DNA of 64,000 bases from Eledone cirrhosa (Eukaryota), in assembly GCA_964016885.1 (NCBI GenBank), contig OZ024740.1, positions 90,520,001 through 90,584,000 of the forward strand. Reading direction: 5' to 3'. A program made the position numbers and the translations under genes. Positions 1,661 to 34,409 of this stretch are shown here, in pieces (within the stretch, counting starts at the first letter, position 1; each line of letters begins with the position of its first letter). The notes under the pieces are model-generated. The model did not search any database and had not been told where the DNA came from. It worked only from the letters and a program-made list of their open reading frames with translations.

Positions 1661-1717
1661 AAATGTAAGTATGTATGTATACGTACATACATATATGTAT
1701 ACAGACGTACAGTAGCA

Positions 1718-1759
<42 letters not shown>

Positions 1760-2133
1760 TACGTACAGGTACACATACATATATGTACGTATCAGTTTAG
1801 CGGACGCTTATTATAGCGCCCGCTTTGTTCGTTTGTAAACAAACTGAACAACCTGAATTTATGCCGTACGGTGTTAAGGCAACCGCGTCACCTTTTTCTT
1901 CAACACTGGCAGAGGAACGATGTACTAGTTTCAAGCTTGTTAGCTATCATCAGCACCGTATACCCTTCTGCCAGATGGTTGAAATTTCGAAAGTATATAC
2001 TTTCCTTATGAAAATTAACGTCTGAGCATCCTAATTTGCATATCGAGTGAGTTCGGCCAGGCGTACCGAGAACTATAAGTTGTAATAAAATGAAAACGAA
2101 ATTTCATTTCTCACTCTTAGTACGGCACTTACT
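1661..2133 (-). mobile_element. Family C ~488-bp HHR repeat, inverted unit
   Basis: Reverse complement of the unit repeated at 2131-2857 and 4652-5831; contains the HHR at 1918-1958. Confidence 0.85.
1918..1958 (-). ncRNA. Minimal type-I hammerhead ribozyme (family C)
   Basis: Minus strand reads CGGTG-CTGATGA-tAGCT aaca AGCTt-GAAAC TA GTA-CATCG. Palindromic stem III ACTAGT, GUA site. Confidence 0.85.
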
Positions 2134-2220
2134 TGGTATGCAAATTAGGCTGCTCAGCCGTTAATTTTCATAAGGATAGTATATACTTTCTAACGTTCAA
2201 CCATCTGGCAGAAGGGTATA

Positions 2221-2261
2221 CGGTGCTGATGACAGCTAACAAGCTTGAAACTAGTACACCA
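2221..2261 (+). ncRNA. Minimal type-I hammerhead ribozyme (family C)
   Basis: GGTG-CTGATGA-cAGCT aaca AGCTt-GAAACTAGTA-CACC, with a perfect stem I. Confidence 0.85.
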
Positions 2262-2413
2262 TTCCTGTGTCAGTGTTGAACAAAAAGGTGACGTGGTTGC
2301 CTTAACACAGAACGGCATAAATTCAGGCTGTTCAGTTTGTTTACAAACGAACAAAGCGGGCGCTATAATAAGCGTCCGCTAAACTGATACGTACATATAT
2401 GTATGTGTACCTG

Positions 2414-2471
<58 letters not shown>

Positions 2472-2708
2472 TGCTACTGTAGGTCTGTATACATATACGT
2501 ATGTATGTATGTATACATACATACTTACATTTACGTAAGTGCCGTACTAAGAGTGAGAAATGAAATTTCGTTTTCATTTTATTACAACTTATCGTTCTCG
2601 GTACGCCTGGCCGAACTCACCCGATATGCAAATTAGGCTGCTCAGCCGTTAATTTTCTTAAGGAAAGTATATACTTTCGAACGTTCAACCATCTGGCAGA
2701 AGGGTATA

Positions 2709-2749
2709 CGGTGCTGATGATAGCTAACAAGCTTGAAACTAGTACATCG
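2709..2749 (+). ncRNA. Minimal type-I hammerhead ribozyme (family C)
   Basis: CGGTG-CTGATGA-TAGCTAACAAGCTT-GAAACTAGTA-CATCG. Confidence 0.85.
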
Positions 2750-2854
2750 TTCCTGTGTCAGTGTTGAACAAAATGTGACGTGGTTGCCTTAACACCGTAC
2801 GGCATAAATTCAGGCTGTTCAGTTTGTTTACAAACGAACAAAGCGGGCGCTATA

Positions 2855-4597
2855 ATATGAAAAGTGGTTTTAGATTGATGTGTGATATTGGGAAACATAT
2901 TTTATTTAGAGAGGGGGGGGAGAGAAAAGGATGAAAAGGGAAGGAGATGAGAGGGAGAGATGGGTGATAGAGAGAAAGAGATAGTTTTTATAACTGAGAG
3001 GAGATATATTTTATATAGAGGGGTTGAAAACCGTTGGAAGATACTGTATAAATTAAACATTTTGAAAATTAACGAAGGGAGGATATATGCGAGGAAAAAA
3101 TATATTATATTTAGGGAGGGGGGGGGGATTGGAAAGGATGAAAAAAAGGGGAGGAGATGAGAGTGAAGGTGGAAAGGGAGAGATGGGTGATAGAGAGAAA
3201 GAGATAGTTTTTATAACTGAGAAAAAGATATAATGTTTTAATATAGAGAGGTTGTGAACCGTTGGAAGATAATGTATAAATTAAAGGAATTTGAAAATTA
3301 ACGAAGGGAAATTATGTATGAAGATAGAGAGAAAAAAATAATAATTGTGGGTGAATATTCTAACGTCAAAAGGAGAAATGTAGGAATTTTAAAATTAGCA
3401 AAGAGAACAAGTTTATGTGTAGAAGGATTTGAGAAAAATAATGTGAAGTTAAAGTTTGTATATTGAATTCATATGTATTAATAATGAGTTCGTTGATGGG
3501 GAGAAAAAAATAATAATAAATTAAGGATGAAATTGAGATTAAAAAGATTTATGATAGAGAGAAAAAATAATAATGATTGCGGATGAATACTCAAAATGTC
3601 AAAAACAAATGTTATTGTTTTACGAGGAGATAGAATGAGGGTAATGAGTAAACGAGTATTATAGAGTGTATAATGCCCTTTAAAGTAAGGTAGATGGGTA
3701 TATTTTAAAGAATATATGAGTATATATTAAAAAAAATATATAATAATAAATTAAGGATGAAATTGAGATTAAAAAGATTTATGATAGAGAGAAAAAATAA
3801 TAATGATTGCGGATGAATATTCAAAATGTCAAAAACAAATGTTATTGTTTTACGAGAAGATAGAAATCCTTCTACACATAAACTTTTTCTCTTTGCTAAT
3901 TTTAAAATTCCTACATTTCTTCTTTTGACGTTAGAATATTCACCCACAATTATTATTTTTTTCTCTCTATCTTCATACATAATTTCCCTTCGTTAATTTT
4001 CAAATTCCTTTAATTTATACATTATCTTCCAACGGTTCCCAACCTCTCTATATTAAAACATTATATCTTTTTCTCAGTTATAAAAACTATCTCTTTCTCT
4101 CTATCACCCATCTCTCCCTTTCCACCTTCACTCTCATCTCCTCCCCTTTTTTTCATCCTTTCCAACCCCCCCCTCCCTAAATATAATATATTTTTTCCTC
4201 GCACATATCCTCCCTTCGTTAATTTTCAAAATTTTTAATTTATACAGTATCTTCCAACGGTTTTCAACCCCTCTATATGAAATATATCTCCTCTCAGTTA
4301 TAAAAACTATCTCTTTCTCTCTATCACCCATCTCTCCCTCTCATCTCCTTCCCTTTTCATCCTTTTCTCTCCCCCCCCTCTCTAAATAAAATATTTTTCC
4401 CAATATCACACATCAATCTAAAACCACTTTTCATATGTTGATTTAAAACTGCACTATCAACAAGTGTTTTTTTTAGCCTTCATATCATGTTCTCCTGTTT
4501 TATCTGATGAAAACACAAATATTATTGTTTGATGATGTTTGTTTTTGAAATGCGCATAATAAAATATATTGAACTCCTTTAACCATCTTTTGATCTC

Positions 4598-4600
<3 letters not shown>
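2855..4600 (+). mobile_element. Family D non-coding Penelope-type element with a large inverted segment
   Basis: ~575-bp inverted arms 2855-3430 / 3864-4436. The spacer holds a ~123-bp direct repeat (3511-3634, 3741-3863). The plus arm continues into an HHR, AATAAA and (TA)n. Confidence 0.75.
4498..4564 (+). ncRNA. Type-I hammerhead ribozyme (family D)
   Basis: TTTTAT-CTGATGA-long stem II (ACAAATATTATT/GATGATGTTTGT with G-U pairs)-GAAA-TGCGCA-TA-ATAAAA. Palindromic stem III ATGCGCAT, AUA site. Confidence 0.8.
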
Positions 4601-4655
<55 letters not shown>

Positions 4656-4888
4656 TGCTACTGTACGTCTGTATACATATATGTATGTACGTATACATAC
4701 ATACTTACATTTAAGTAAGTGACATACTAAGAGTGAGAAATGAAATTTCGTTTTCATTTTATTACAACTTATCGTTCTCGGTTCGCCTGGCGGAACTCAC
4801 TTGATATGCAAATAAGGCTGCTCAGCCGTTAATTTTCATAAGGAAAGTATATACTTTCGAACGTTCAACCATCTGGCAGAAGGGTATA

Positions 4889-4929
4889 CGGTGCTGATGA
4901 TAGCTAACAAGCTTGAAACTAGTACATCG
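4889..4929 (+). ncRNA. Minimal type-I hammerhead ribozyme (family C)
   Basis: CGGTG-CTGATGA-TAGCTAACAAGCTT-GAAACTAGTA-CATCG. Confidence 0.85.
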
Positions 4930-5087
4930 TTCCTGTGTCAGTGTTGAACAAAAAGGTGACGCGGTTGCTTTAACACCGTACGGCATAAATTCAGGCTGTT
5001 CAGTTTGTTTACATACGAGCAAAGCGGGCGCTATAATAAGCGTCCGCTAAACTGATACGTACATATATGTATGTGTACCTGTATGTT

Positions 5088-5132
<45 letters not shown>

Positions 5133-5376
5133 ATATGCATGCTACTGCAGGTCTGTATACATATATGTATGTATGTATGTATACATACATATTTACATTT
5201 ACGTAAGTGCCGTACTAAGAGTGAGAAATGAAATTTCGTTTTCATTTTATTACAACTTATCGTTCTCGGTACGCCTGGCCGAACTCACTTGATATGCAAA
5301 TTAGGCTGCTCAGCCGTAATTTTCATACGGAAAGTATATACTTTCGAACGTTCAACCTATCTGGCAGAAGGGTATA

Positions 5377-5417
5377 CGGTCCTGATGATAGCTAACAAGC
5401 TTGAAACTAGTACATCG
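5377..5417 (+). ncRNA. Minimal hammerhead ribozyme (family C, one stem I mismatch)
   Basis: CGGTC-CTGATGA-TAGCTAACAAGCTT-GAAACTAGTA-CATCG; a G>C change next to the core breaks the first stem I pair. Confidence 0.7.
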
Positions 5418-5585
5418 TTCCTGTGTCAGTGTTGAACAAAAAGGTGACGCGGTTGCCTTAACACCGTACGGCATACATTCAGGCTGTTCAGTTTGTTTAC
5501 AAACGAGCAAAGCGGGCGCTATAATAAGCGTCCGCTAAACTGATACGTACATATATGTATGTGTACCTGTATGTATATATGTGTG

Positions 5586-5704
<119 letters not shown>

Positions 5705-5838
5705 TATATATATGCATGCTACTGTACGTCAGTATACATATATGTATGTACGTATACATACATACTTACATTTAAGTAAGTGCCGTACTAAGAGTGAGAA
5801 ATGAAATTTCGTTTTCATTTTATTACAACTTATATATA

Positions 5839-5935
<97 letters not shown>

Positions 5936-5937
5936 TG

Positions 5938-5988
<51 letters not shown>

Positions 5989-5994
<6 letters not shown>

Positions 5995-6165
5995 ATATTA
6001 ATTAAATGTAAACTATATTTATAAAACCAGATTTATTATATTTTATATATTTCAAGGGTACCAAAAATGTTTGTACGCTATCATCAGATAAAATACAAAG
6101 TGTGTTCTATAAATGTTGACATAACCAACGATGATATACCTTAACGGTTCAAGTTATCCCTTGAC
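5989..6165 (-). mobile_element. Family E fragment with degenerate HHR (6039-6095)
   Basis: Similar to 19141-19290 (AAACTATATTTATAAAACCA..TCATCAGA.AAAATACAA). Minus strand TATTTTAT-CTGATGA...GAAA-TAT-ATAAAATA with a shortened stem III. TA tracts on both sides. Confidence 0.6.
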
Positions 6166-6566
6166 ATATATATATATATATACACTATAAAGTATGTCCA
6201 TAGAATCATTTGATAATATATATACACAATTTCCTCTCCCATCTAGCATAATTAACCACACAAAAATCAATTAGACCAGGCTACAAGATTAAAAGGCACC
6301 TATGAAGAAATATTAAATAAATAAACGACAGCAATCGCTTCACGGCCAACCGCCTTAGATTATTTACCCAACATTTCAACGCCACGTGGAAATCGCTTAA
6401 ATATATGGTCAACCATACACAATTAGGTATAAAATTAAAGTTAGAAATGTTTATATACATACCAGGATTATGTCCCTACCCTTGATATCATTCGCATTTC
6501 GAGATATTTTTCGCATTTATCATTCGCATTTTGATATATTTTTCGCATATATCGTTCGCATTTTGA

Positions 6567-6634
6567 GAACTGATAAAGAGAATAAATATATGCACATAGT
6601 AAAACAATCAGCACACAGAAACACGTATATATAC

Positions 6635-6732
<98 letters not shown>

Positions 6733-6807
6733 TTATGTATGTATATATATAAGTGTGTGTGCTGATTGTTTTACTATGTGCATATATTTATTCGCTTTAT
6801 CGGTTCC
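6567..6807. repeat. ~55-70 bp inverted repeat flanking a (TA)n tract
   Basis: GAACTGATAAAGAGAATAAATATATGCACATAGTAAAACAATCAGCACACA vs TGTGTGCTGATTGTTTTACTATGTGCATATATTTATTCGCTTTATCGGTTC. Confidence 0.8.
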
Positions 6808-7791
6808 CATTTGGTAAATCATGGTTTAGGAAATTTAAGATATTTCTTCTTACCGCCTAGTACTATATTACGGATTACAATCATGTGTTCAGACAATATA
6901 TATAATATAGGTAAGAGGATTTTATGCACGATTCTAATTCTTCTTTTGTAAATACATATTTGTTTAATGGTTTATGCATTATAAACTCTCTGTTATGTAA
7001 CGAATGTTGATTTATGCAATGCATTAAGCGAATATCTCAGGATATATTTCCTGTTTCCGGTATTTACTATTAACTCATTGAACATGATATCTTATTCAAA
7101 TTGTCTGGTATTAATTCCAGAATAATTTTATCATTCTTTCTTACTACAATTGTTATTGTTAAACAACGATTAACTGTGTTTAACTATTTTTGATAGAATA
7201 TATTTTATATTATATATTTATGTGCATATATAATCACGTGTATATTATGTGCCCAATGAGGTGTAACATATGAGGAAATCAAATATATTCTAACGAGTGC
7301 ATGGCTTAATACCTTGTAAATGCACTAACAATGGAATTGTAAGTGGAAATGCGTACTGGATAAAGGATTATATATCCTATGATGATTCTATGCTTCGTAA
7401 ACTTACGAACAATTCATTTACATTTATCCACTAGGAACGTAATTTATGATAGCGTAGGGCTATGTTAGATTTAACATAAAGCAAGTCATAAGTAAATATC
7501 GCTATATATTCTTCTAAGAAGCTTTCGTATCTCAAATGAAGAAAAACATTGCAACCACAGTTCATTGCTACAAATCTTAATTTCTAAAGTCACGTAAAAT
7601 ACCCATATAGACGTTAAAACTTGGACAATGTTGTCCCTATATAGCGATATAGTAAAAGGTAACGTCGGCAGACTTTAGAGTAATTGACTATTGTTATTCT
7701 TGTCTTCTGCGTTTGAAATGTCTACATTTAATACAATTTTCAACCTTATCAACGCTCCGACAACTTACATTCGAAATGCTATTCACAATCC

Positions 7792-7886
<95 letters not shown>

Positions 7887-10850
7887 TTGTGATCCAGAAT
7901 AAACCAGACGTACACATATGTGCAAAAACACAATGTCTTATTAGTATAGATACACAGATAGATAGGTAGATAGTTTGATCCCCCATAGTTCTCTGTTGGA
8001 TCCCGGTGTGGTTTAATACATTGAGGTCAATATTGCAGGTAATAATGTAATAGCATATTTAAATGAGACACTAATTCTTCCTAATTTCAGTCATTTTGGA
8101 TAGAAAGTAATTGTCTTCGATAAAACAATATTGCAGGAACCAGTAATCGTACGATTAAGCTCACTAAATACAGTATAACAACCATTTCACTTACTGATAA
8201 CAACAACTTCTATTAAATGTGATTTCATGAATACAACTTTAACTCTCATTTTTAACATAAAATTATGAGGAATATATAGAAGCAAGTCAATCCTATACTT
8301 CCCCAAACCAGCATTAAAACATCCGTTCAGCATTAGACTGAGATTCTATATCTTTTCATAAAAGCTTGTATATTGTAGCATAGCTAATTATTCATATCGC
8401 ATCATATGAGATGTTATATCCCAAATATTGCTGGGCCTTTGAGTACGTTTTAAATTAGATTGTATATACATAAGATTAGACATATATCTAAAAATAAAAG
8501 TAAGAAAACAGATATCGATTATTTTCACAAAATTTCAGTCAATATCAGAGTTAATACAAGGTACTAATGATATACACTATACCTATGCACATGATCTTAA
8601 AATTAACAAACATTATGTTCCCGAAATTTCAAATAAACATGCATCAACGAAAACTGATAATTAATCTAATACGAATGTGATATATACAAATATATTTAAA
8701 CAGCCTTGATTCTGCAGATGCTTTACGTAAATGAACATTACAAACACAATTATACTTCATTCATGCATTAAATTTTATTCATACATCGATTAAATATTTA
8801 AAAGGAAGTATTCCTCAAATCGTTAAAGAAAAGCAGCAAAAAAGTATAAATAAACAAATATTTTAATAAATGACGCTTTTAGTTCTCCGAAACTTACTTT
8901 ATTTCTTCACACATGTGAATTTCAAATTCATTTCATTTATACATTTCATATTACTATATTTATTATTCGTATCATATTGATATATTTATTATTCGTATCA
9001 TATTCGACCAAAACTACTAATTGCTATTTACTCAGTGAAGTGATAGCAGTTTGTAATGTAAATGCGTGTATAGCTCTAGGTAACTTCTAAAGAATTCTGT
9101 TGTTTGATGTTTGATATATGATGCTATATTTGACGTTTAATGACCATTTTCAATTATACGGTCATCGAAGCAGTTATATCTAAAAGTACTACAAGGGACT
9201 TATTTAGTTTACTTAAGTTTAATAAGATGACAATATTCTTTAATGTGCCCGTATTTATATTATAGAGAATGTCTTATATATTTTTGAATTTTTGTTTCGG
9301 AATTTACACTTCGGAATTTATGTTTTCTAGTATGGTTACTTATTCTCGTGAAAATCATTTAAAACTTATTATATATTTATGTGTAATTCAAACGTTTATG
9401 ACATTTTTTTTAGGAATATTTCAGTCATCATTATATTCATATATGTACCCGGTATGTTTAATTTCCTAAATAATAATTATTGATAAATAAGTTTAATTCT
9501 AGATTGTATATGAGAATAATGGCACTTAGTCATCCATAGAAGTTATGGACCAGAATCCATTATCAATCTGCTTTTCAGACTGGCGCTCCGATAAAAAATA
9601 TTGTGTTTGTTGTGATTTGTGAGAAGCCGGATATATATATATATATATAAGCATTCTTTGCCTATGTGGGCCTATGTGGGCATTTGAGTACATTGCTAAG
9701 GCTACATTTGTTCTTACATATACACGTATATTCATGTGCGCATTTACGTGTGTGTACGCGTCTATCCATCCATACGTATGTACGATGAACAGAAAGTGAA
9801 ATAAATGTGAAATGAAAGTGTGACAGTTTAGGAGTGAGGTGTGGAGTGTGACACGGTATGATGACGCAGTGTACGGTCATCCCATTAGTAGTGACAATTA
9901 TTTCTAGACTGACTGCGTCCACTAAGTAAATAAATAAAGATGATAAATGAATTATTTGATACTGAATGAAGAGGAAAACTATTGAATTGAATAATTATCA
10001 TTATTATATGAGTGATACGTTTTATATTATATAACATGTATATTGTTGAGTTGTATGTTAGTGAGTGTTTAAGGAAATTTGAATCATATATATGTACAAA
10101 ATATAATTATCATTAAAATTGTGTCGCTTGCATTCAAGCCTATTTTTCATGACGGATTGATCATGAATTAAATAGTATCAAGTTGACTTACGATCTAAAT
10201 GGCTTTTGCATTATGTTTTTCCCTAATATCAAATCCTCTGCACCATTGTATGTTTAAAGATGATGAAATAAGTGAATTCATATACTTGAAACTCTGCACT
10301 AATACGGATCGAATAAGATACGTATTAATGTTTAATTGCCAATTAATTACGATTTAAATATTTTTAAGGTGAATTAAAAGTCAAGGTGTATACCATCTAT
10401 AGCTGAGACACGCCAATAGGCGTAAAATATGATTATAATTTGAAAACGGTAAGGACAAATAATATGATCTTATATTTACACAAATATATTTTAATTGCAC
10501 AATGCAAATGAACTTATGTTAAGCTATCATACCATACGGTATACGGAAACAGAATTGGGTCAGAAATATTAAAGTCTGTTACTAGTGAAATATATGAAAG
10601 GAAATCGAAATATATTCAAATGAGTAATTTCAATGAAAATCAGTTTCCGTGCACTCTACACATTTAACGAATGTATAATGCCATAGACGAAATCCAGGGA
10701 AATAAACCCAGCTCTAATTCATTCTAACATTTTACATTTCAAAGTCCATCGGTTTATATTCACTTAAAATACATATATATATATGTCATATATTAGTGTT
10801 TGTATGTATACATACACACGCGTGCACACGCACACACACACACATATATA

Positions 10851-15171: not shown

Positions 15172-15645
15172 AGCGTTCCTTTTTGTTCAGTTAAAATCTT
15201 TTTGCTAGTGTTAATTTAGTAATTTTGCTAGTAATTTAATGAGACTATTTTGAAGTTATAATTCAATACATGCTTTTGATATATTCGGCTCCACTAATTC
15301 GTAGAACTATTTCAAATGTCGTGTAGACCCGGCTGCTATTTTCAGTGGTGTAAGAATGCGCGATACGCTAAGTTCGTGAACCATGTGCGTTATATATATA
15401 TACACACCTTTTCCAGTTTTCTATTTGATTTAGAAGTGAGGAGGATACTAATTTCTTCACCCACTGATGGGCCTGGAATTTGGTATATCTCTTCACAAAT
15501 AACATTGCGTCTGGATGATGGTAGTTACCACAATACTGGTTTGTATTTATTTTTCTTAATTTATTCTTAAATTGAGTCTAGCAAACCCTATTGTCTGTAG
15601 TTAGTATTTTTTTCACCTTAGCGATGTTGGTCCATTGAGATGTGA

Positions 15646-15650
<5 letters not shown>
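14930..15650. mobile_element. Family I fragments (related to 35009-35635), with degenerate HHR at 15458-15517
   Basis: Direct repeat 14993-15107 / 15534-15648; inverted piece 14930-14970 vs 15238-15283; CACCCA-CTGATGG..GTC-TGGATG. Confidence 0.6.
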
Positions 15651-15678
<28 letters not shown>

Positions 15679-15766
15679 ATAAAAAATTGAACAGGGACAG
15701 AACAGAGAGGCAGTACGAAAAATGTTTATTAGATTCACGCTCAGGAGAGTGGGGGGTAGGTGGAGG

Positions 15767-15798
15767 ACGACGTTTCGGGCATAAGCCCTTCTTCAGGT
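15767..15798 (-). ncRNA. Minimal hammerhead ribozyme (family J)
   Basis: Minus strand AC-CTGAAGA-aGGGC ttat GCCC-GAAACGTC-GT. Palindromic ACGT stem III, GUC site, short stem I. Confidence 0.75.
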
Positions 15799-16153
15799 AA
15801 GAGTTCAAAAGGTGTGTAGGGGAGTGGTGGAGAGACATATAGCGAAAGGAAACGGTGCGAATTAAAAATTAACAGGCAAAGAATCATATACGGAAAAAAA
15901 AGGGGTACGGTAACAACATCAAACAGAGGTAATGCGTGGAAGGAAAGACAAAGTGTGGGAAGGTGTGTAAAGTTCGGAGACAGGTCACGGCGGATTAGAT
16001 CGGGGTTGAGCCGGTTGTTAAGTGAGTTCCAAGGATGGAGGCCGTGTGAGCGTGTGTTTTGTATAATAAAAAATTGAACAGGGACAGAACAGAGAGGCAG
16101 TACGACAAATGTTTATTAGATTCACGCTCAGGAGAGTGGGGGGTAGGTGGAGG

Positions 16154-16185
16154 ACGACGTTTCGGGCATAAGCCCTTCTTCAGGT
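16154..16185 (-). ncRNA. Minimal hammerhead ribozyme (family J)
   Basis: Identical motif 387 bp from the first. Confidence 0.75.
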
Positions 16186-16466
16186 AAGAGTTCAAAAGGT
16201 GTGTAGGGGAGTGGTGGAGAGACATATAGCGAAAGGAAACGGTGCGAATGAAAAATTAACAGGCAAAGAATCATATACGGAAAAAAAAGGGGTACGGTAA
16301 CAAAATCAAACAGAGGTAATGCGTGGAAGGAAAGACAAAGTGTGGGAAGGTGTGTAAAGTTCGGAGACAGGTCACGGCGGATTAGATCGGGGTTGAGCCG
16401 GTTGTTAAGTGAGTTCCAAGGATGGAGGCCGTGTGAGCGTGTTTTATATAATAAAAAATTGAACAG

Positions 16467-16520
<54 letters not shown>

Positions 16521-16539
16521 TCGTTTTTCCGTTTTGTTC

Positions 16540-16576
<37 letters not shown>

Positions 16577-16619
16577 TGTGTGTGTGTGAGGGGGGGGGGG
16601 GCGTGTATGACAGGTAAGT

Positions 16620-19087
16620 ATGTTTTCAAGTAACGAGCGAGTTTGAAGTTAGAAATAGAAGGTTTCGGCATATTTTCGGGTAAAAACAAAGTTAGCCTGA
16701 TAGTGGGGTTTAGAACCCTCAAAGAGCGTGTTTTATGGACCTATCTCCGATTATCTACCAACCTTGCCATAAACCTAACCAAAACTTGCATTACATACAC
16801 TCACAATCTAATCACCCTAGATCTATCCTTAAAAACTTAGCATATAATATCTCACTCAGAATCTCTAATCTTTCATCAAATCATGATGTATTCGATAAAA
16901 TCGCGCCCTTTTATAATGAAGCTTTAGCTAGAAGTTGCTACAAGAACAAATTAGTCTATATACCTTGCACCAATAATATTTCAAACATACAACCTAATAT
17001 TACCAACAAACACCACATGAAAAAACCACACCTAAATGCCACTCATACTACACCTAATAAGACCAACCCAAAACTTAATTTCTCTACCTCTTCTCACATA
17101 AAAGATGACTTTCAAAAAAACATTCACCCTAATACTCTAACAAATCTCAACAACATAACATACAACATTCCTAGTAATCAAAGCAAAACACCAAAATCCA
17201 TTAATCTAACTAAACCTATATATAATAGAATCACTAATAGTAACTCTCTCAGTAAACCTACGGATACATCATATACATTTAAGAAACAATGTTGAAACCG
17301 TAATAGACGAGTTACTTGGTATAATGCTCCATTTTATCTACAGATTAAATACCATATCCCTAAAACATTCGTTGCTATCCTAGAGAAAATCTTCCCACCA
17401 AACTATAAATACGATCAAATTTTAGATAGATCTACTGTGACGTTTTCCTACTCCACTACCAAGAATATACGACATAATATAAGTGCTTACAACAAATATA
17501 AGTGTAAAATAAACCATAAATATACCACCAACACATCAAACCAACCATAATAATACGAAAAAAACCCAAAACAAAGCATATTGTTCTTCACCGTAAACTC
17601 CACACCAATTTTGACTAATAATCTCCAAAACAAACAGAACTCTACTAGCTCCACATCCCCTAAACTATCACCCACCAACAACCTGTCTAACAATAGAACT
17701 CTAATTACAACCCATTCTAAACCATACATTAATGAAAATAGTAACACTAATACAACTATAGATAACACAATTAACTCTCCTGATACAATATGTACGAATG
17801 GTTTTAACTGTAGAATCAAAAGAATTCCCCATTAAAGAGAAATCGATCGTCTTATTAATAGCATAGTCTATACATGTGTAATTAGTACTAAGGACTCCAC
17901 TCAATACTATATAAGAGCTACGTCTAACCAATCTAAAGTAATATTTAATACCCACAAACTTAGTTTTAAAAATGCCGCATTAGCTTATACAACCTCCTTG
18001 AGGCAATTAATAATTATAGAAAGAGGGATATTGATTACAACCCGACCTGGAGCGTGCTCAAAATGGCTATCTCTTATCAAAATAGCAGATATGAGTGTAG
18101 ATTATGCTTCCAAGAACTATTTGAAATCATGAAATCTAATGATATCATATTAAATAAGCGACAGGAGATAATTATATCATGCAATCATAGAATTAGACAA
18201 AACTTCAAATATTATAAACTTAATTAGTATATACCTCACTCTTATATTTTACAAATCATTATGATTAATTAAAAACTTTTTTTTTAATTTAGTTAACCTA
18301 ATGTCCCTCTTACAACTCACTTTACATAAAGTTATCTTTAACCTGACTACCTCTTTTAACCGCATCCCCTATTTATCACATTTAATAGCTAGGATTATTA
18401 AATATAATTAATATCTTTAATATTATGGATGTTTAGATAGATAAACTGCTTTTTATGAAATTTTATCTATTTCAGTTTTTCTATATATATTTTTAATTTT
18501 TTTAATTTGTTTTTTACTTCTTTATTTATCACATTCATAAGAATTAATATAATGTTAACTCAGTAAGTATACCTATCAATTAATTTAATTTCCTTTTATG
18601 TATCTAGTTTCCTTCAAATTTAAATAGGATTATAATTTCTAATTAACACTCTCATTCGACAAATTACTTTCCCTTCTCTTTTAACAGCAGTTTTTAATAA
18701 CATCAAATTCTTTGGGACTCTTTCACTATCTCCTTGATTTGACCAAATTTTAACCCCTAACTTTCTCTTCCCCATTGTATTATTTTCATTCAAAGCATAA
18801 ATTTACATTCCTCCCTCCTAGCAGCAAGTTCTGCTACTGTTATTCTATCAACTTGACCTCTCACTCTTTTCTATTGGTCAATTCAAAACCTGTTCCCAAA
18901 CAGACCTTTTATATTAATACTTTGTTTCTTTCAATAAACATGCTCCTCTGATAATTTGTAATATTTTATTACATACGCCTTTAACATGATATGTATACCA
19001 ACACACATATATATGCCAGAAATGATCGTAAAATAATGAATATTTCAATATAATAAACCTGTTCTTTTTTTAAAATTTAATTGTTTT

Positions 19088-34292: not shown

Positions 34293-34378
34293 TCCACCAA
34301 CACCCCACTCTCCAGAGCGTGAAATTAATAAACATTCGTTGTACTGCCTCTCTATTTTGTTCCTGTTCAAATGTTTCC

Positions 34379-34383
<5 letters not shown>
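34293..34383 (+). repeat. Family J 3' fragment (downstream of the HHR cleavage site)
   Basis: Reverse complement of ~15676-15764; flanked by (TA)n. Confidence 0.8.

Positions 34384-34409
<26 letters not shown>

What the first reader, a model, noticed from the sequence alone, without database searches (positions are those of the whole stretch)
15676..16470. Near-perfect 387-bp dimer with ultra-minimal GAAACGUC hammerheads: a young non-LTR retrozyme candidate
Seen: 2.06 units with only a handful of differences, non-coding, inside (TA)n. The HHR has no stem III loop (ACGU palindrome), so a monomer cannot fold. Established: such HHRs act as dimers in tandem repeats of roughly this size. Inference: a transcript of this locus could self-excise a 387-nt monomer.
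Basis: partly seen in the sequence, partly recalled or inferred. Interest (0 to 1): 0.75.

Follow-up and report, generated by a model that had tools for sequence, protein, structure and literature searches.

The report
Penelope-element offshoot with hammerhead ribozymes
This 387-base double repeat is a short piece of a Penelope-type jumping gene, copied into a TA-repeat, that carries the gene's own tiny self-cutting RNA motif, which likely does cut in living cells; it looks like a ribozyme repeat ("retrozyme") at birth but shows no sign of having spread.

Summary
Window 15675-16471 is 2.06 tandem units of 387 bp inside (TA)n, with a minimal hammerhead on the minus strand of each full unit.

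It is not a retrozyme family of its own. Each unit is 98-99% identical to two adjoining parts of a ~4.7-kb Penelope-like element (PLE: RT plus GIY-YIG) that is abundant in this genome:
- the last 208 nt of its pseudo-LTR, which holds the hammerhead;
- the first 190 nt of its body.

The array ends at the PLE's fixed 3' end, as 76 of 80 sampled copies do.

Seventeen such mini-arrays were mapped. Each locus has its own body|pLTR junction. The window's junction occurs nowhere else. One other junction was amplified only locally, into an ~87-kb satellite.

The hammerhead matches the published PLE "min-HHR" type. Rfam does not detect it. Of 49 short copies read, 19 begin exactly at the predicted cut, so cleavage in vivo is inferred.

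No RNA data could be obtained. The 387-nt RNA is predicted to be no more structured than shuffled sequence.

Verdict: a PLE by-product that is retrozyme-like in build, and a new member of a known kind. The scan noted other retrozyme families in this genome, on other DNA.

The parts
15650..15674 (.). (AT)n target microsatellite next to the element's 3' end
   Evidence: TRF. In 76 of 80 sampled family copies, (TA)n follows directly after the same 3' end.
15675..15882 (-). 3'-terminal copy of the last 208 nt of the PLE pseudo-LTR (a208..a1). It ends at the family's fixed 3' end ...TTATTATA.
   Evidence: BLAST to the parent element in L051: 97.6% over 208 nt.
15769..15796 (-). Minimal hammerhead, copy 2. 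The predicted cut lies between 15769 and 15768 on the minus strand (GUC|GUCCUCC).
   Evidence: The motif's features match the min-HHR description read.
15872..16061 (-). First 190 nt of the PLE body (b1..b190), second copy. It starts with an AC-rich stretch just past the presumed reverse-transcription start.
   Evidence: BLAST: 99% over 398 nt spanning a208..a1 plus b1..b190.
15872..15882 (-). Body|pLTR junction: 11-nt imperfect microhomology (TCTTTGCCTGT against TCTTTATTTGT in the parent). The same junction recurs at 16259-16269.
   Evidence: The junction 24-mer occurs only at these two places in the genome.
16062..16269 (-). Last 208 nt of the pseudo-LTR, internal copy
   Evidence: 98.6% over 208 nt.
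16156..16183 (-). Minimal hammerhead, copy 1. The predicted cut lies between 16156 and 16155.
16259..16446 (-). First 190 nt of the PLE body, first copy (carries a 2-nt deletion)
16447..16471 (-). 5' partial unit: the last 24-25 nt of the pseudo-LTR (a25..a1). The array therefore begins and ends with the same 24-25 nt.
   Evidence: 100% over 25 nt. Also.
16472..16514 (.). (AT)n target microsatellite next to the array's 5' end
   Evidence: TRF.

Best explanation
This is a 2.06-unit tandem copy of a 387-base piece of a Penelope-like retrotransposon, lying in a (TA)n microsatellite. Each unit joins the last 208 bases of the element's terminal repeat, with its minimal hammerhead, to the first 190 bases of its body. 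It was most likely written there by that element's reverse transcriptase as a by-product, and it is not an independent retrozyme family.

Shown:
- The identity to the parent element.
- The shared fixed 3' end and the (TA)n target.
- A junction that is unique in the genome.

Inferred from the anole PLE work:
- Reverse transcription starts at the pseudo-LTR end (a1), 94 nt past the hammerhead cut.
- The 190 body bases that follow are the part of the RNA the enzyme holds.
- Each unit is therefore roughly a minimal template.

Inferred from the copies:
- The template already carried the body|pLTR junction. It was either a small RNA circle or one short RNA re-entered end to end.
- The second unit could instead have arisen later, by unequal exchange between the 25-nt terminal repeats.

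The hammerhead is the PLE's own. It is likely active in cells, because many family copies start exactly at its predicted cut. It probably needs a partner motif or the PLE protein to cut.

A transcript across this locus would be cut 387 nt apart. The released RNA would keep the start site and the presumed binding region. The locus is therefore built like a retrozyme at birth, but nothing shows that it has been copied on.
For: Parent element (L051 4421-9694):
- It has 569-nt terminal direct repeats and a 4705-nt unit.
- It has an 815-codon open frame with a weak RVT_1 match (E 4e-4) and a weak GIY-YIG match (E 0.0096). The residues PADKG, YIDD and YVGQT can be read in it.
- 570 homologues at E<=0.001 were found. 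All 120 listed carry one or both of PF28514 and PF26215, most also RVT_1 and some GIY-YIG.
- There is one hammerhead in each repeat.

Relation of the window to the parent:
- The window units match a208..a1 plus b1..b190 at 97.6-99%.

Family size and ends:
- The exact hammerhead 28-mer occurs 2231 times in the genome. A 3' probe occurs 1815 times.
- 76 of 80 sampled copies have (TA)n directly after a1.
- Searches for 3' ends elsewhere found 2 matches upstream and 0 downstream.

Junctions:
- 17 mini-array loci were mapped, and each has its own junction.
- The junction is the same within a locus: window 2 of 2, L048 2 of 2, both inverted arms of L004, and the C8 array.
- The window junction 24-mer occurs only in the window.
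- The C8 junction occurs 209 times, all on one strand. The 100 listed places lie in one ~87-kb array.
- None of the 17 array 5' ends lies at the full-length start a569.

Hammerhead cleavage:
- 49 loci flanked by TATATA, with 5' ends in a88-a100, were read. 19 start at the predicted G after GUC; 3.8 per position would be expected (p = 1.3e-9).
- In the sample chosen by the 3' probe, 18 5' ends lie in a46-a94 against 4 in a95-a166.

Literature read:
- Features of the min-HHR, and its low activity in vitro (PMC4209133).
- In the anole PLE, reverse transcription starts internally in an AC-rich stem-loop 85-92 nt past the hammerhead cut. The RNA needs about 172 nt past the start codon. The hammerhead is protein-assisted. 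AT-rich DNA is cut (PMC11167929).
Against: - Transcription, cleavage and circles at this locus are all untested.
- Rfam's hammerhead models give no match at E<=10.
- Helix I has only 2 base pairs.
- In a two-copy cofold, an inactive register (the ACGUCGU palindrome, -23.3 kcal/mol) beats a partial model of the active dimer, which held the helix II hairpins and the intermolecular ACGU helix only (-18.9).
- The hammerhead columns vary less than the flanks (7 of 28 against 86 of 204 columns with a variant), but not significantly (p = 0.10).
- The 5'-end spike is uneven: 1 of 10 loci on contig C1 against 18 of 39 on C2-C9. There is also a second mode at +5/+6 (a88-a89, 14 loci) that the cut does not explain.
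- The tally was made by eye on 100 of 170 listed matches.
- 0 of 6 full-length parent copies sampled has an unbroken reading frame, so a currently active partner is not shown.
- How the junction forms is not resolved.
Confidence: 0.8

Rival explanations
1. One reading: an independent young non-LTR retrozyme. Its 387-nt unit would be cut out by the two hammerheads, circularised, and copied back into the genome by a borrowed reverse transcriptase.
For: - Tandem units of retrozyme size, with one intact hammerhead each.
- GC content is 46%.
- The unit keeps the family's 3' end and the 190 nt past it.
- The family hammerhead is likely active.
- Retrozymes are proposed to derive from PLE pseudo-LTRs (preprint 10.64898/2026.07.22.740005; Results and Discussion read).
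Against: - The junction 24-mer occurs nowhere else in 3.0 Gb.
- Every other mini-array has a different junction.
- The one amplified junction stayed at a single locus.
- The circular MFE is -38.3 kcal/mol, z = +0.22 against shuffles. Published metazoan retrozyme RNAs are described as highly self-paired (PMC7229834, passages read).
- There are no RNA data.
Confidence: 0.12
2. A full-length Penelope-like insertion that later lost about 4.3 kb by a deletion in the DNA, and then duplicated locally.
For: - Single-junction arrays have the form [pLTR piece][body start]|[pLTR end], as an internally deleted element would.
- DNA-level amplification does occur in this family: the C8 satellite has a 9-unit higher-order period.
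- The step from 1.06 to 2.06 units could be one unequal exchange between the 25-nt terminal repeats.
Against: - None of the 17 array 5' ends lies at a569, where 5 of 6 full-length copies start.
- The pLTR-side breakpoints (a176-a359) overlap a cluster of solo-copy 5' ends (a167-a297). This points to RNA ends rather than random DNA breaks.
- The two inverted arms of L004 carry the same junction, which a deletion after insertion would have to make twice.
Confidence: 0.06
3. An ordinary satellite or a chance motif, with no ribozyme.
For: Rfam finds no hammerhead. Helix I is almost absent.
Against: - 0.01 motif matches are expected by chance.
- The motif sits in the pseudo-LTR of an RT/GIY-YIG element, where min-HHRs are described.
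- Copies start at its predicted cut.
Confidence: 0.02

Closest known systems
Minimal hammerheads (min-HHR) of Penelope-like elements (Cervera & de la Pena 2014, PMC4209133; parts 1-2 of 4 read)
   Same: - Located in both pseudo-LTRs.
- Core boxes present.
- An unpaired base lies between A9 and 10.1.
- Helix II is closed by G10.1-C11.1.
- No helix III loop; positions 15.2-16.2 form the palindrome ACGU, so the motif would act as a dimer.
- Helix I is as short as in the Drosophila virilis variant (2 bp).
   Different: - Helix II here is 4 bp, not the 6-8 bp described for most min-HHRs.
- The paper reports low activity in vitro and had no in vivo evidence. Here, copy ends point to cutting in cells.
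Metazoan non-LTR retrozymes (Cervera & de la Pena 2020, PMC7229834, passages read; Li, Clavereau & Pollet 2026 preprint 10.64898/2026.07.22.740005, abstract, Results part 1 and Discussion read)
   Same: - Non-coding tandem units of 150-450 bp with one type I hammerhead each.
- GC content below 50%.
- They co-occur with PLEs and are related to the pseudo-LTR.
   Different: - This unit is not a family: its junction is private to the locus.
- It includes 190 nt of the element's body, not only pseudo-LTR.
- Its RNA is not predicted to be self-paired.
- The preprint proposes local DNA amplification after insertion. Here the arrays look made at insertion.
Poseidon PLE of Anolis carolinensis, PAc (Frangieh et al. 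2024, PMC11167929; main text read)
   Same: - Reverse transcription starts inside the RNA, next to an AC-rich stretch, about 90 nt past the hammerhead cut (94 nt here).
- RNA past the start site is needed.
- The target is AT-rich.
- Two-strand (two-armed) insertions occur (L004).
- The hammerhead is weak on its own.
   Different: - No 30-40-bp 'tail' was found here.
- In PAc, no RNA-seq reads began or ended at the cut. Here many DNA copies do.
- In this element the ORF starts about 0.4-0.8 kb past the pseudo-LTR, not inside the hammerhead.
Non-autonomous Chlamys PLE derivatives such as MRC1 (Craig et al. 2021, PMC8557442; passages read)
   Same: Short derivatives that share the 3' end with an autonomous PLE and give pseudo-LTRs and multicopy head-to-tail insertions.
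   Different: - Those are established families with many copies, and they lack canonical hammerheads.
- This locus is a one-off and carries a hammerhead.
Newt satellite 2 and other dimer-dependent hammerhead satellites (named in PMC7229834 and PMC4209133; details recalled)
   Same: Units of about 330 bp whose hammerhead needs a second copy to form helix III.
   Different: Those have a short helix III hairpin and a normal helix I, and they are abundant, transcribed families.

Membership tests
Hammerhead ribozyme, PLE minimal type (min-HHR) | Catalytic boxes CUGANGA and GAAA, A15.1-U16.1, and a cleavage triplet GUH | tested here: met
   CUGAAGA ... GAAA-C-G-U-C is present twice on the minus strand.
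Hammerhead ribozyme, PLE minimal type (min-HHR) | An extra base between A9 and 10.1; a G10.1-C11.1 pair; palindromic 15.2-16.2 with no loop 3 (list read in PMC4209133) | tested here: met
   The sequence reads A, then GGGC/GCCC, then ACGU.
Hammerhead ribozyme, PLE minimal type (min-HHR) | Helix I (4-5 bp in most min-HHRs, 2 bp in D. virilis) | tested here: inconclusive
   Only G-C and U-A can pair. Both flanks are pyrimidine-rich.
Hammerhead ribozyme, PLE minimal type (min-HHR) | Self-cleavage at the predicted site | tested here: met
   The evidence is indirect only. 19 of 49 short genomic copies start at the base after GUC. No RNA or bench assay was done. The fold favours an inactive register.
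Hammerhead ribozyme (Rfam models) | A match to an Rfam hammerhead covariance model | tested here: not met
   No hammerhead family is among the 25 matches at E<=10 in 15500-16700.
Penelope-like element (the parent family) | One ORF with a reverse transcriptase and a GIY-YIG endonuclease | tested here: met
   RVT_1 at E 4e-4 and GIY-YIG at E 0.0096, both below Pfam's cut-offs. 570 homologues were found, many with RVT_1 and GIY-YIG. A C-x4-C-x2-C linker is read. The clade was not tested by a tree.
Penelope-like element (the parent family) | Pseudo-LTRs holding a hammerhead; 5' truncation; a fixed 3' end; an AT-rich target | tested here: met
Penelope-like element (the parent family) | A 30-40-bp 'tail' extension at one end | tested here: not met
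   2 matches for earlier 3' ends and 0 for later ones.
Metazoan non-LTR retrozyme | Non-coding tandem units of about 150-450 bp, each with a type I hammerhead; low GC | tested here: met
Metazoan non-LTR retrozyme | A family of copies of the same unit at many loci (non-autonomous mobility) | tested here: not met
   The junction is unique. The other arrays all have other junctions. The C8 junction stays at one locus.
Metazoan non-LTR retrozyme | Expressed as linear and circular RNA of unit length | not testable with these tools
Metazoan non-LTR retrozyme | Highly self-paired RNA | tested here: not met
   Circular MFE is -38.3 kcal/mol for 387 nt, z = +0.22 against 100 shuffles.

The most novel reading that the evidence does not exclude
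Retrozymes are born at the moment of insertion. The Penelope reverse transcriptase repeatedly goes more than once round a closed ~300-700-nt template cut out of its own RNA, giving a fresh tandem array with a private junction at each locus. The two ends of that template lie at similar distances on either side of the reverse-transcription start (r = 0.87 over 16 loci). This would be the footprint of an enzyme-protected RNA fragment that is circularised or re-entered end to end. The element's minimal hammerhead cuts in vivo and sets one class of RNA 5' ends.
Probability: 0.35. Interest if true: 0.7.

Novelty: new member of a known kind. Interest (0 to 1): 0.5.

Why it matters
The locus links three things that the papers read here treat separately: an autonomous Penelope-like element, its minimal hammerhead, and a retrozyme-like tandem array. 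It does so at near-identity and base by base.

- **A testable origin for retrozymes.** The unit is the stretch around the reverse-transcription start, close to the minimal template defined at the bench for the anole element. The arrays look made by the enzyme, not by later DNA slippage.
- **Evidence that the hammerhead works.** Copy ends give genomic evidence that a minimal PLE hammerhead, weak in vitro, cuts in cells.

For the window itself the result is sobering. The repeat is a one-off by-product, not a new replicating RNA.

Tried and rejected
- **Rfam scan**: only microsatellite-driven miRNA look-alikes, and no hammerhead.
- **Chance motif:** rejected.
- **A single deletion-derivative family that spreads:** I assumed this first and then rejected it. 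The junctions differ at every locus and the window junction is unique.
- **Base pairing between pLTR and body as the cause of the symmetric junctions:** the MFE of a420..b420 has no a(y)-b(x) helix with x near y. It shows only a1-a19 with b204-b224, and a412-a416 with b321-b325.
- **Kinship with the 311-nt retrozyme family noted earlier in this genome:** no BLAST similarity, and a different hammerhead.
- **The PLE 'tail':** not found.
- **Purifying selection on the hammerhead, read from copy variation:** a trend only, p = 0.10.
- **Stable dimeric hammerhead fold:** not favoured thermodynamically.
- **Intact parent ORF:** 0 of 6 copies.

Full report
**1. The observation**

Tandem Repeats Finder reports one array at 15673-16471: period 387, 2.1 copies, 98% matches. 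It lies between (AT)n runs at 15650-15678 and 16471-16514.

On the minus strand each full unit reads CUGAAGA-A-GGGC-UUAU-GCCC-GAAA-C-G-U-C, followed by GUCCUCC. The pattern CTGANGA-N8-24-GAAACGTC matches twice, at 15769-15796 and 16156-16183. From 100 shuffles, 0.01 matches are expected.

Both flanks of the motif are pyrimidine-rich and cannot pair.

Rfam's covariance models do not see the motif. None of the 25 matches at E<=10 in 15500-16700 is a hammerhead; all the better ones are microsatellite artefacts.

**2. What the unit is**

I took the reverse complement of 15700-16086 as the query. A search of the window's own genome (3.0 Gb; the window is C1:90520001-90584000) gave 1092 candidates.

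Most hits covered only query positions 205-387 plus 1-215, and they had conserved flanks on both sides. Six 9.9-kb stretches showed a larger element. In L051 it spans 4421-9694, with 569-nt terminal direct repeats (4421-4989 and about 9126-9694) and a 4705-nt unit. Within a copy the two repeats are 98.6-99.5% identical, in 6 of 6 copies.

The longest frame is 815 codons, stop to stop.
- It has a weak RVT_1 match (E 4e-4; 20.6 bits against a cut-off of 29.6).
- It has a weak GIY-YIG match (E 0.0096).
- The residues KPADKGG, YIDD, and a C-x4-C-x2-C motif before VYGL...YVGQT can be read in the translation.
- 570 proteins match at E<=0.001. All 120 listed carry PF28514 and/or PF26215, most also PF00078, and some PF01541.

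With a hammerhead in each terminal repeat, this is a Penelope-like element (PLE) with a C-terminal endonuclease. Craig et al. describe the extra cysteine motif for the Neptune and Nematis clades (PMC8557442, passages read). I did not test the clade by a tree.

None of the 6 sampled copies has an unbroken frame.

**3. Coordinates used below**

- a(n) is the n-th base counted back from the 3' end of the pseudo-LTR (pLTR). a1 is the last A of ...TTATTATA.
- b(n) is the n-th base of the body after the pLTR.
- The hammerhead 28-mer is a122-a95. The predicted cut is a95|a94.

Read 5' to 3' on the minus strand, the window array is:

[a25..a1][b1..b190] | [a208..a1][b1..b190] | [a208..a1]

It is 97.6-99% identical to L051. 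Each '|' is a join of body to pLTR through an imperfect 11-nt microhomology.

So the unit is the last 208 nt of the pLTR plus the first 190 nt of the body. The 4318 nt between them are missing. The region is untranslated in the parent.

**4. It was inserted like any other copy of the family**

The exact hammerhead 28-mer occurs 2231 times in the genome. A 28-mer at a42-a15 occurs 1815 times.

I fetched 80 of the first 84 listed places of that probe on contig C1. I left out the window's two places and L051's two. In 76 of the 80, (TA)n or (AT)n follows directly after a1.

Patterns for 3' ends up to 16 nt earlier found 2 matches genome-wide. Patterns for 3' ends up to about 30 nt later found none. 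The family therefore has one fixed 3' end and targets (TA)n. The published 30-40-bp 'tail' was not seen.

The window array ends at a1 (base 15675) against (AT)n, like the rest of the family.

**5. It is not a family of its own**

The 24-mer across the window's junction, searched with up to one mismatch, occurs only at the window's two units.

Sixteen other loci carry mini-arrays of the same build. Each locus has its own junction:
- the body side runs from b136 to b378;
- the pLTR side runs from a176 to a359;
- the units are 312-737 nt long.

Within a locus the junction is constant:
- window, 2 of 2;
- L048, 2 of 2;
- both inverted arms of L004;
- all units seen in the C8 array.

The C8 junction occurs 209 times, all on one strand. 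The 100 listed places lie between C8:31392771 and 31434153. Together with the units found, up to 31480141, this is one satellite of about 87 kb made of 416-nt units, with a 9-unit higher-order period. One mini-unit was therefore amplified locally. Neither of the two junctions tested is dispersed.

None of the 17 array 5' ends lies at a569, where 5 of 6 full-length copies begin. This argues against later deletion inside full-length insertions.

**6. How the arrays most likely arise (inference)**

Frangieh et al. studied the anole PLE (PMC11167929, main text read). They show that:
- reverse transcription starts inside the RNA, in an AC-rich stem-loop 85-92 nt past the hammerhead cut;
- the RNA must extend to about 172 nt past the start codon;
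- both DNA strands are cut and extended;
- AT-rich DNA is preferred;
- the hammerhead cuts only with protein present, and is not needed for insertion in vitro.

In the element here:
- the fixed 3' end lies 94 nt past the predicted cut;
- b1-b20 is CAAAACACACGCUCACACGG, which is AC-rich;
- every array keeps at least 136 nt of body.

I therefore read a1 as the start of reverse transcription, and b1 to about b190 as the part the enzyme holds.

The pLTR-side breakpoints (a176-a359) overlap a cluster of 5' ends of solo copies: 10 ends in a167-a297, against 4 in a95-a166. In two arrays the 5' end of the array nearly equals the junction: L029 at a197 and a197, and L003 at a218 and a223. This suggests the pLTR-side breakpoint is an RNA 5' end and the body-side breakpoint an RNA 3' end.

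The junction is constant within a locus, including in two arms made from opposite strands. The template therefore already carried the junction. It was either a small circle or one short RNA re-entered end to end. I cannot tell which.

For the window, the second unit could also have come later, from unequal exchange between the 25-nt terminal repeats of a 1.06-unit insertion such as L028.

**7. Is the hammerhead real and active?**

The motif has the features that Cervera and de la Pena list for PLE min-HHRs (PMC4209133):
- it lies in both pLTRs;
- there is a base between A9 and 10.1;
- there is a G10.1-C11.1 pair;
- positions 15.2-16.2 are palindromic;
- helix I is 2 bp, as in their Drosophila virilis variant.

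They found low activity in vitro.

Reverse transcripts run to the 5' end of their template, so copy ends can show cut RNA. A pattern of TATATA, 0-12 bases, then a88-a74 gave 170 matches. The 100 listed collapse to 49 loci, which I read by eye:

| 5' end | loci |
|---|---|
| a94 | 19 (9 clean, 7 with an extra T, 3 with an extra G) |
| a95 | 4 |
| a96 | 1 |
| a98-a101 | 2 |
| a92/93 | 5 |
| a91 | 2 |
| a90 | 2 |
| a89 | 7 |
| a88 | 7 |

Nineteen at one of 13 positions gives a binomial p of 1.3e-9.

In the sample chosen only by the 3' probe, 18 5' ends lie in a46-a94 and 4 in a95-a166 (p = 9e-5). There the mode is a88 (4 loci), and a94 has 1. The array L016 also begins at a94.

Against this reading:
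- the spike is uneven between contigs (1 of 10 loci on C1, 18 of 39 on C2-C9);
- the a88-a89 mode is unexplained;
- hammerhead columns are not significantly less variable than the flanks (7 of 28 against 86 of 204 columns with a variant, p = 0.10);
- however, the only hammerhead column with five or more variant copies is N7, the one free core position;
- in a cofold of two 72-nt segments, the seven-base palindrome ACGUCGU pairs in a register that buries the cut site (-23.3 kcal/mol), whereas a partial model of the active dimer, holding the two helix II hairpins and the ACGU helix III only, scores -18.9 kcal/mol.

I conclude that cutting in cells is likely, probably helped by protein or by a second copy. 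It has not been shown for this locus.

**8. Would the 387-nt RNA behave as a retrozyme?**

It would keep the start site and the presumed binding region. But it is 67% pyrimidine, and its circular MFE (-38.3 kcal/mol) is no lower than that of dinucleotide shuffles (mean -39.4, z = +0.22). Metazoan retrozyme RNAs are described as highly self-paired (PMC7229834, passages read).

**9. Comparison with what is known**

That animal retrozymes derive from PLE pLTRs is proposed in Cervera and de la Pena 2020. It is argued from co-occurrence and pLTR phylogeny in the 2026 preprint by Li, Clavereau and Pollet. That preprint pictures local DNA amplification of a terminal sequence after insertion.

Three points were not found in the parts of the five papers I read:
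- units that include the body's first ~190 nt;
- junctions that are private to each locus;
- copy ends at the hammerhead cut of an autonomous endonuclease-bearing PLE.

My three literature searches do not amount to proof that these are absent from print. I did not open the supplements of the papers.

Earlier notes of this scan describe other hammerhead retrozyme families in this genome (310/311-, 422- and 467-nt units, often two-armed, in (TA)n). None covers this family. The 311-nt family, fetched at the place one note gives, shares no sequence with it.

**10. Verdict**

The locus is a by-product of a Penelope-like element that is built like a newborn retrozyme. It is a new member of a known kind and of moderate interest. 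Its main value is as one of a set of loci that could show how retrozymes begin.

Noticed in passing
16 mini-array loci: window; L003, L004, L006, L009, L016, L027, L028, L029, L034, L040, L041, L044, L048, L049, L116: The two sides of the body|pLTR junction track each other. The distance into the body (x, 136-378) and the distance back into the pLTR (y, 176-359) correlate: Pearson r = 0.87, p = 1e-5; mean y-x = 14. The junction therefore sits roughly opposite the reverse-transcription start. No pairing between the two regions explains it. L030, mapped later, was not included.
   Followed up: partly
Array 5' ends: window 16471, L028, L004 right arm, L027, L044, L049: 6 of 17 array 5' ends fall in a25-a52, just after the copy has passed the start site again. 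About 1.2 would be expected (p = 8e-4). The cause is unknown.
   Followed up: partly
G000 C8:31392771-31480141 (L006-L026 cover part of it): One mini-unit (416 nt, its own junction) has grown into an ~87-kb satellite of about 209 units on one strand, with a 3743-bp (9-unit) higher-order period.
   Followed up: partly
window 1700-5625: A second, unrelated hammerhead-like repeat, CTGATGA[T/C]AGCTAACAAGCTTGAAAC, at 1928 (-) and at 2226, 2714, 4894 and 5382 (+). It has a 488-bp period and inverted arms, and is interrupted at about 2855-4436 by another inverted-repeat insert. Its helix II (AGCT/AGCT) covaries with that of the 311-nt family in L139 (TTCT/AGAA); the loop AACA is the same in both.
   Followed up: partly
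window 34293-34384 (+): A diverged (85%) solo copy of a related PLE 3' end, lying in (TA)n. It starts at about a88-a89, the same secondary 5'-end mode seen genome-wide.
   Followed up: partly
49 loci: There is a second pile-up of 5' ends 5-6 nt past the predicted cut (a88 and a89, 7 loci each). Of the 19 copies that start at the cut, 10 carry one extra non-matching base (7 T, 3 G).
   Followed up: no
L051 4340-4420 and 9738-9830: The full-length PLE in L051 sits in a (TA)n that is itself the centre of an inverted repeat: ...TGGTGTGCAGCGTCAGT... occurs on both sides in opposite senses. The target may be the loop of a palindromic element.
   Followed up: no
L051-L056: All 6 sampled full-length parent copies have frameshifted ORFs, broken at different places. 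In L051, the 815-codon frame has no ATG ahead of the RT domain.
   Followed up: partly
L051 a1-a19 with b204-b224: In the predicted fold of a420..b420, the last 19 nt of the pLTR pair with b204-b224, enclosing b1-b203. Several junctions fall at b206-b222. The window unit stops at b190 and lacks this stem.
   Followed up: no
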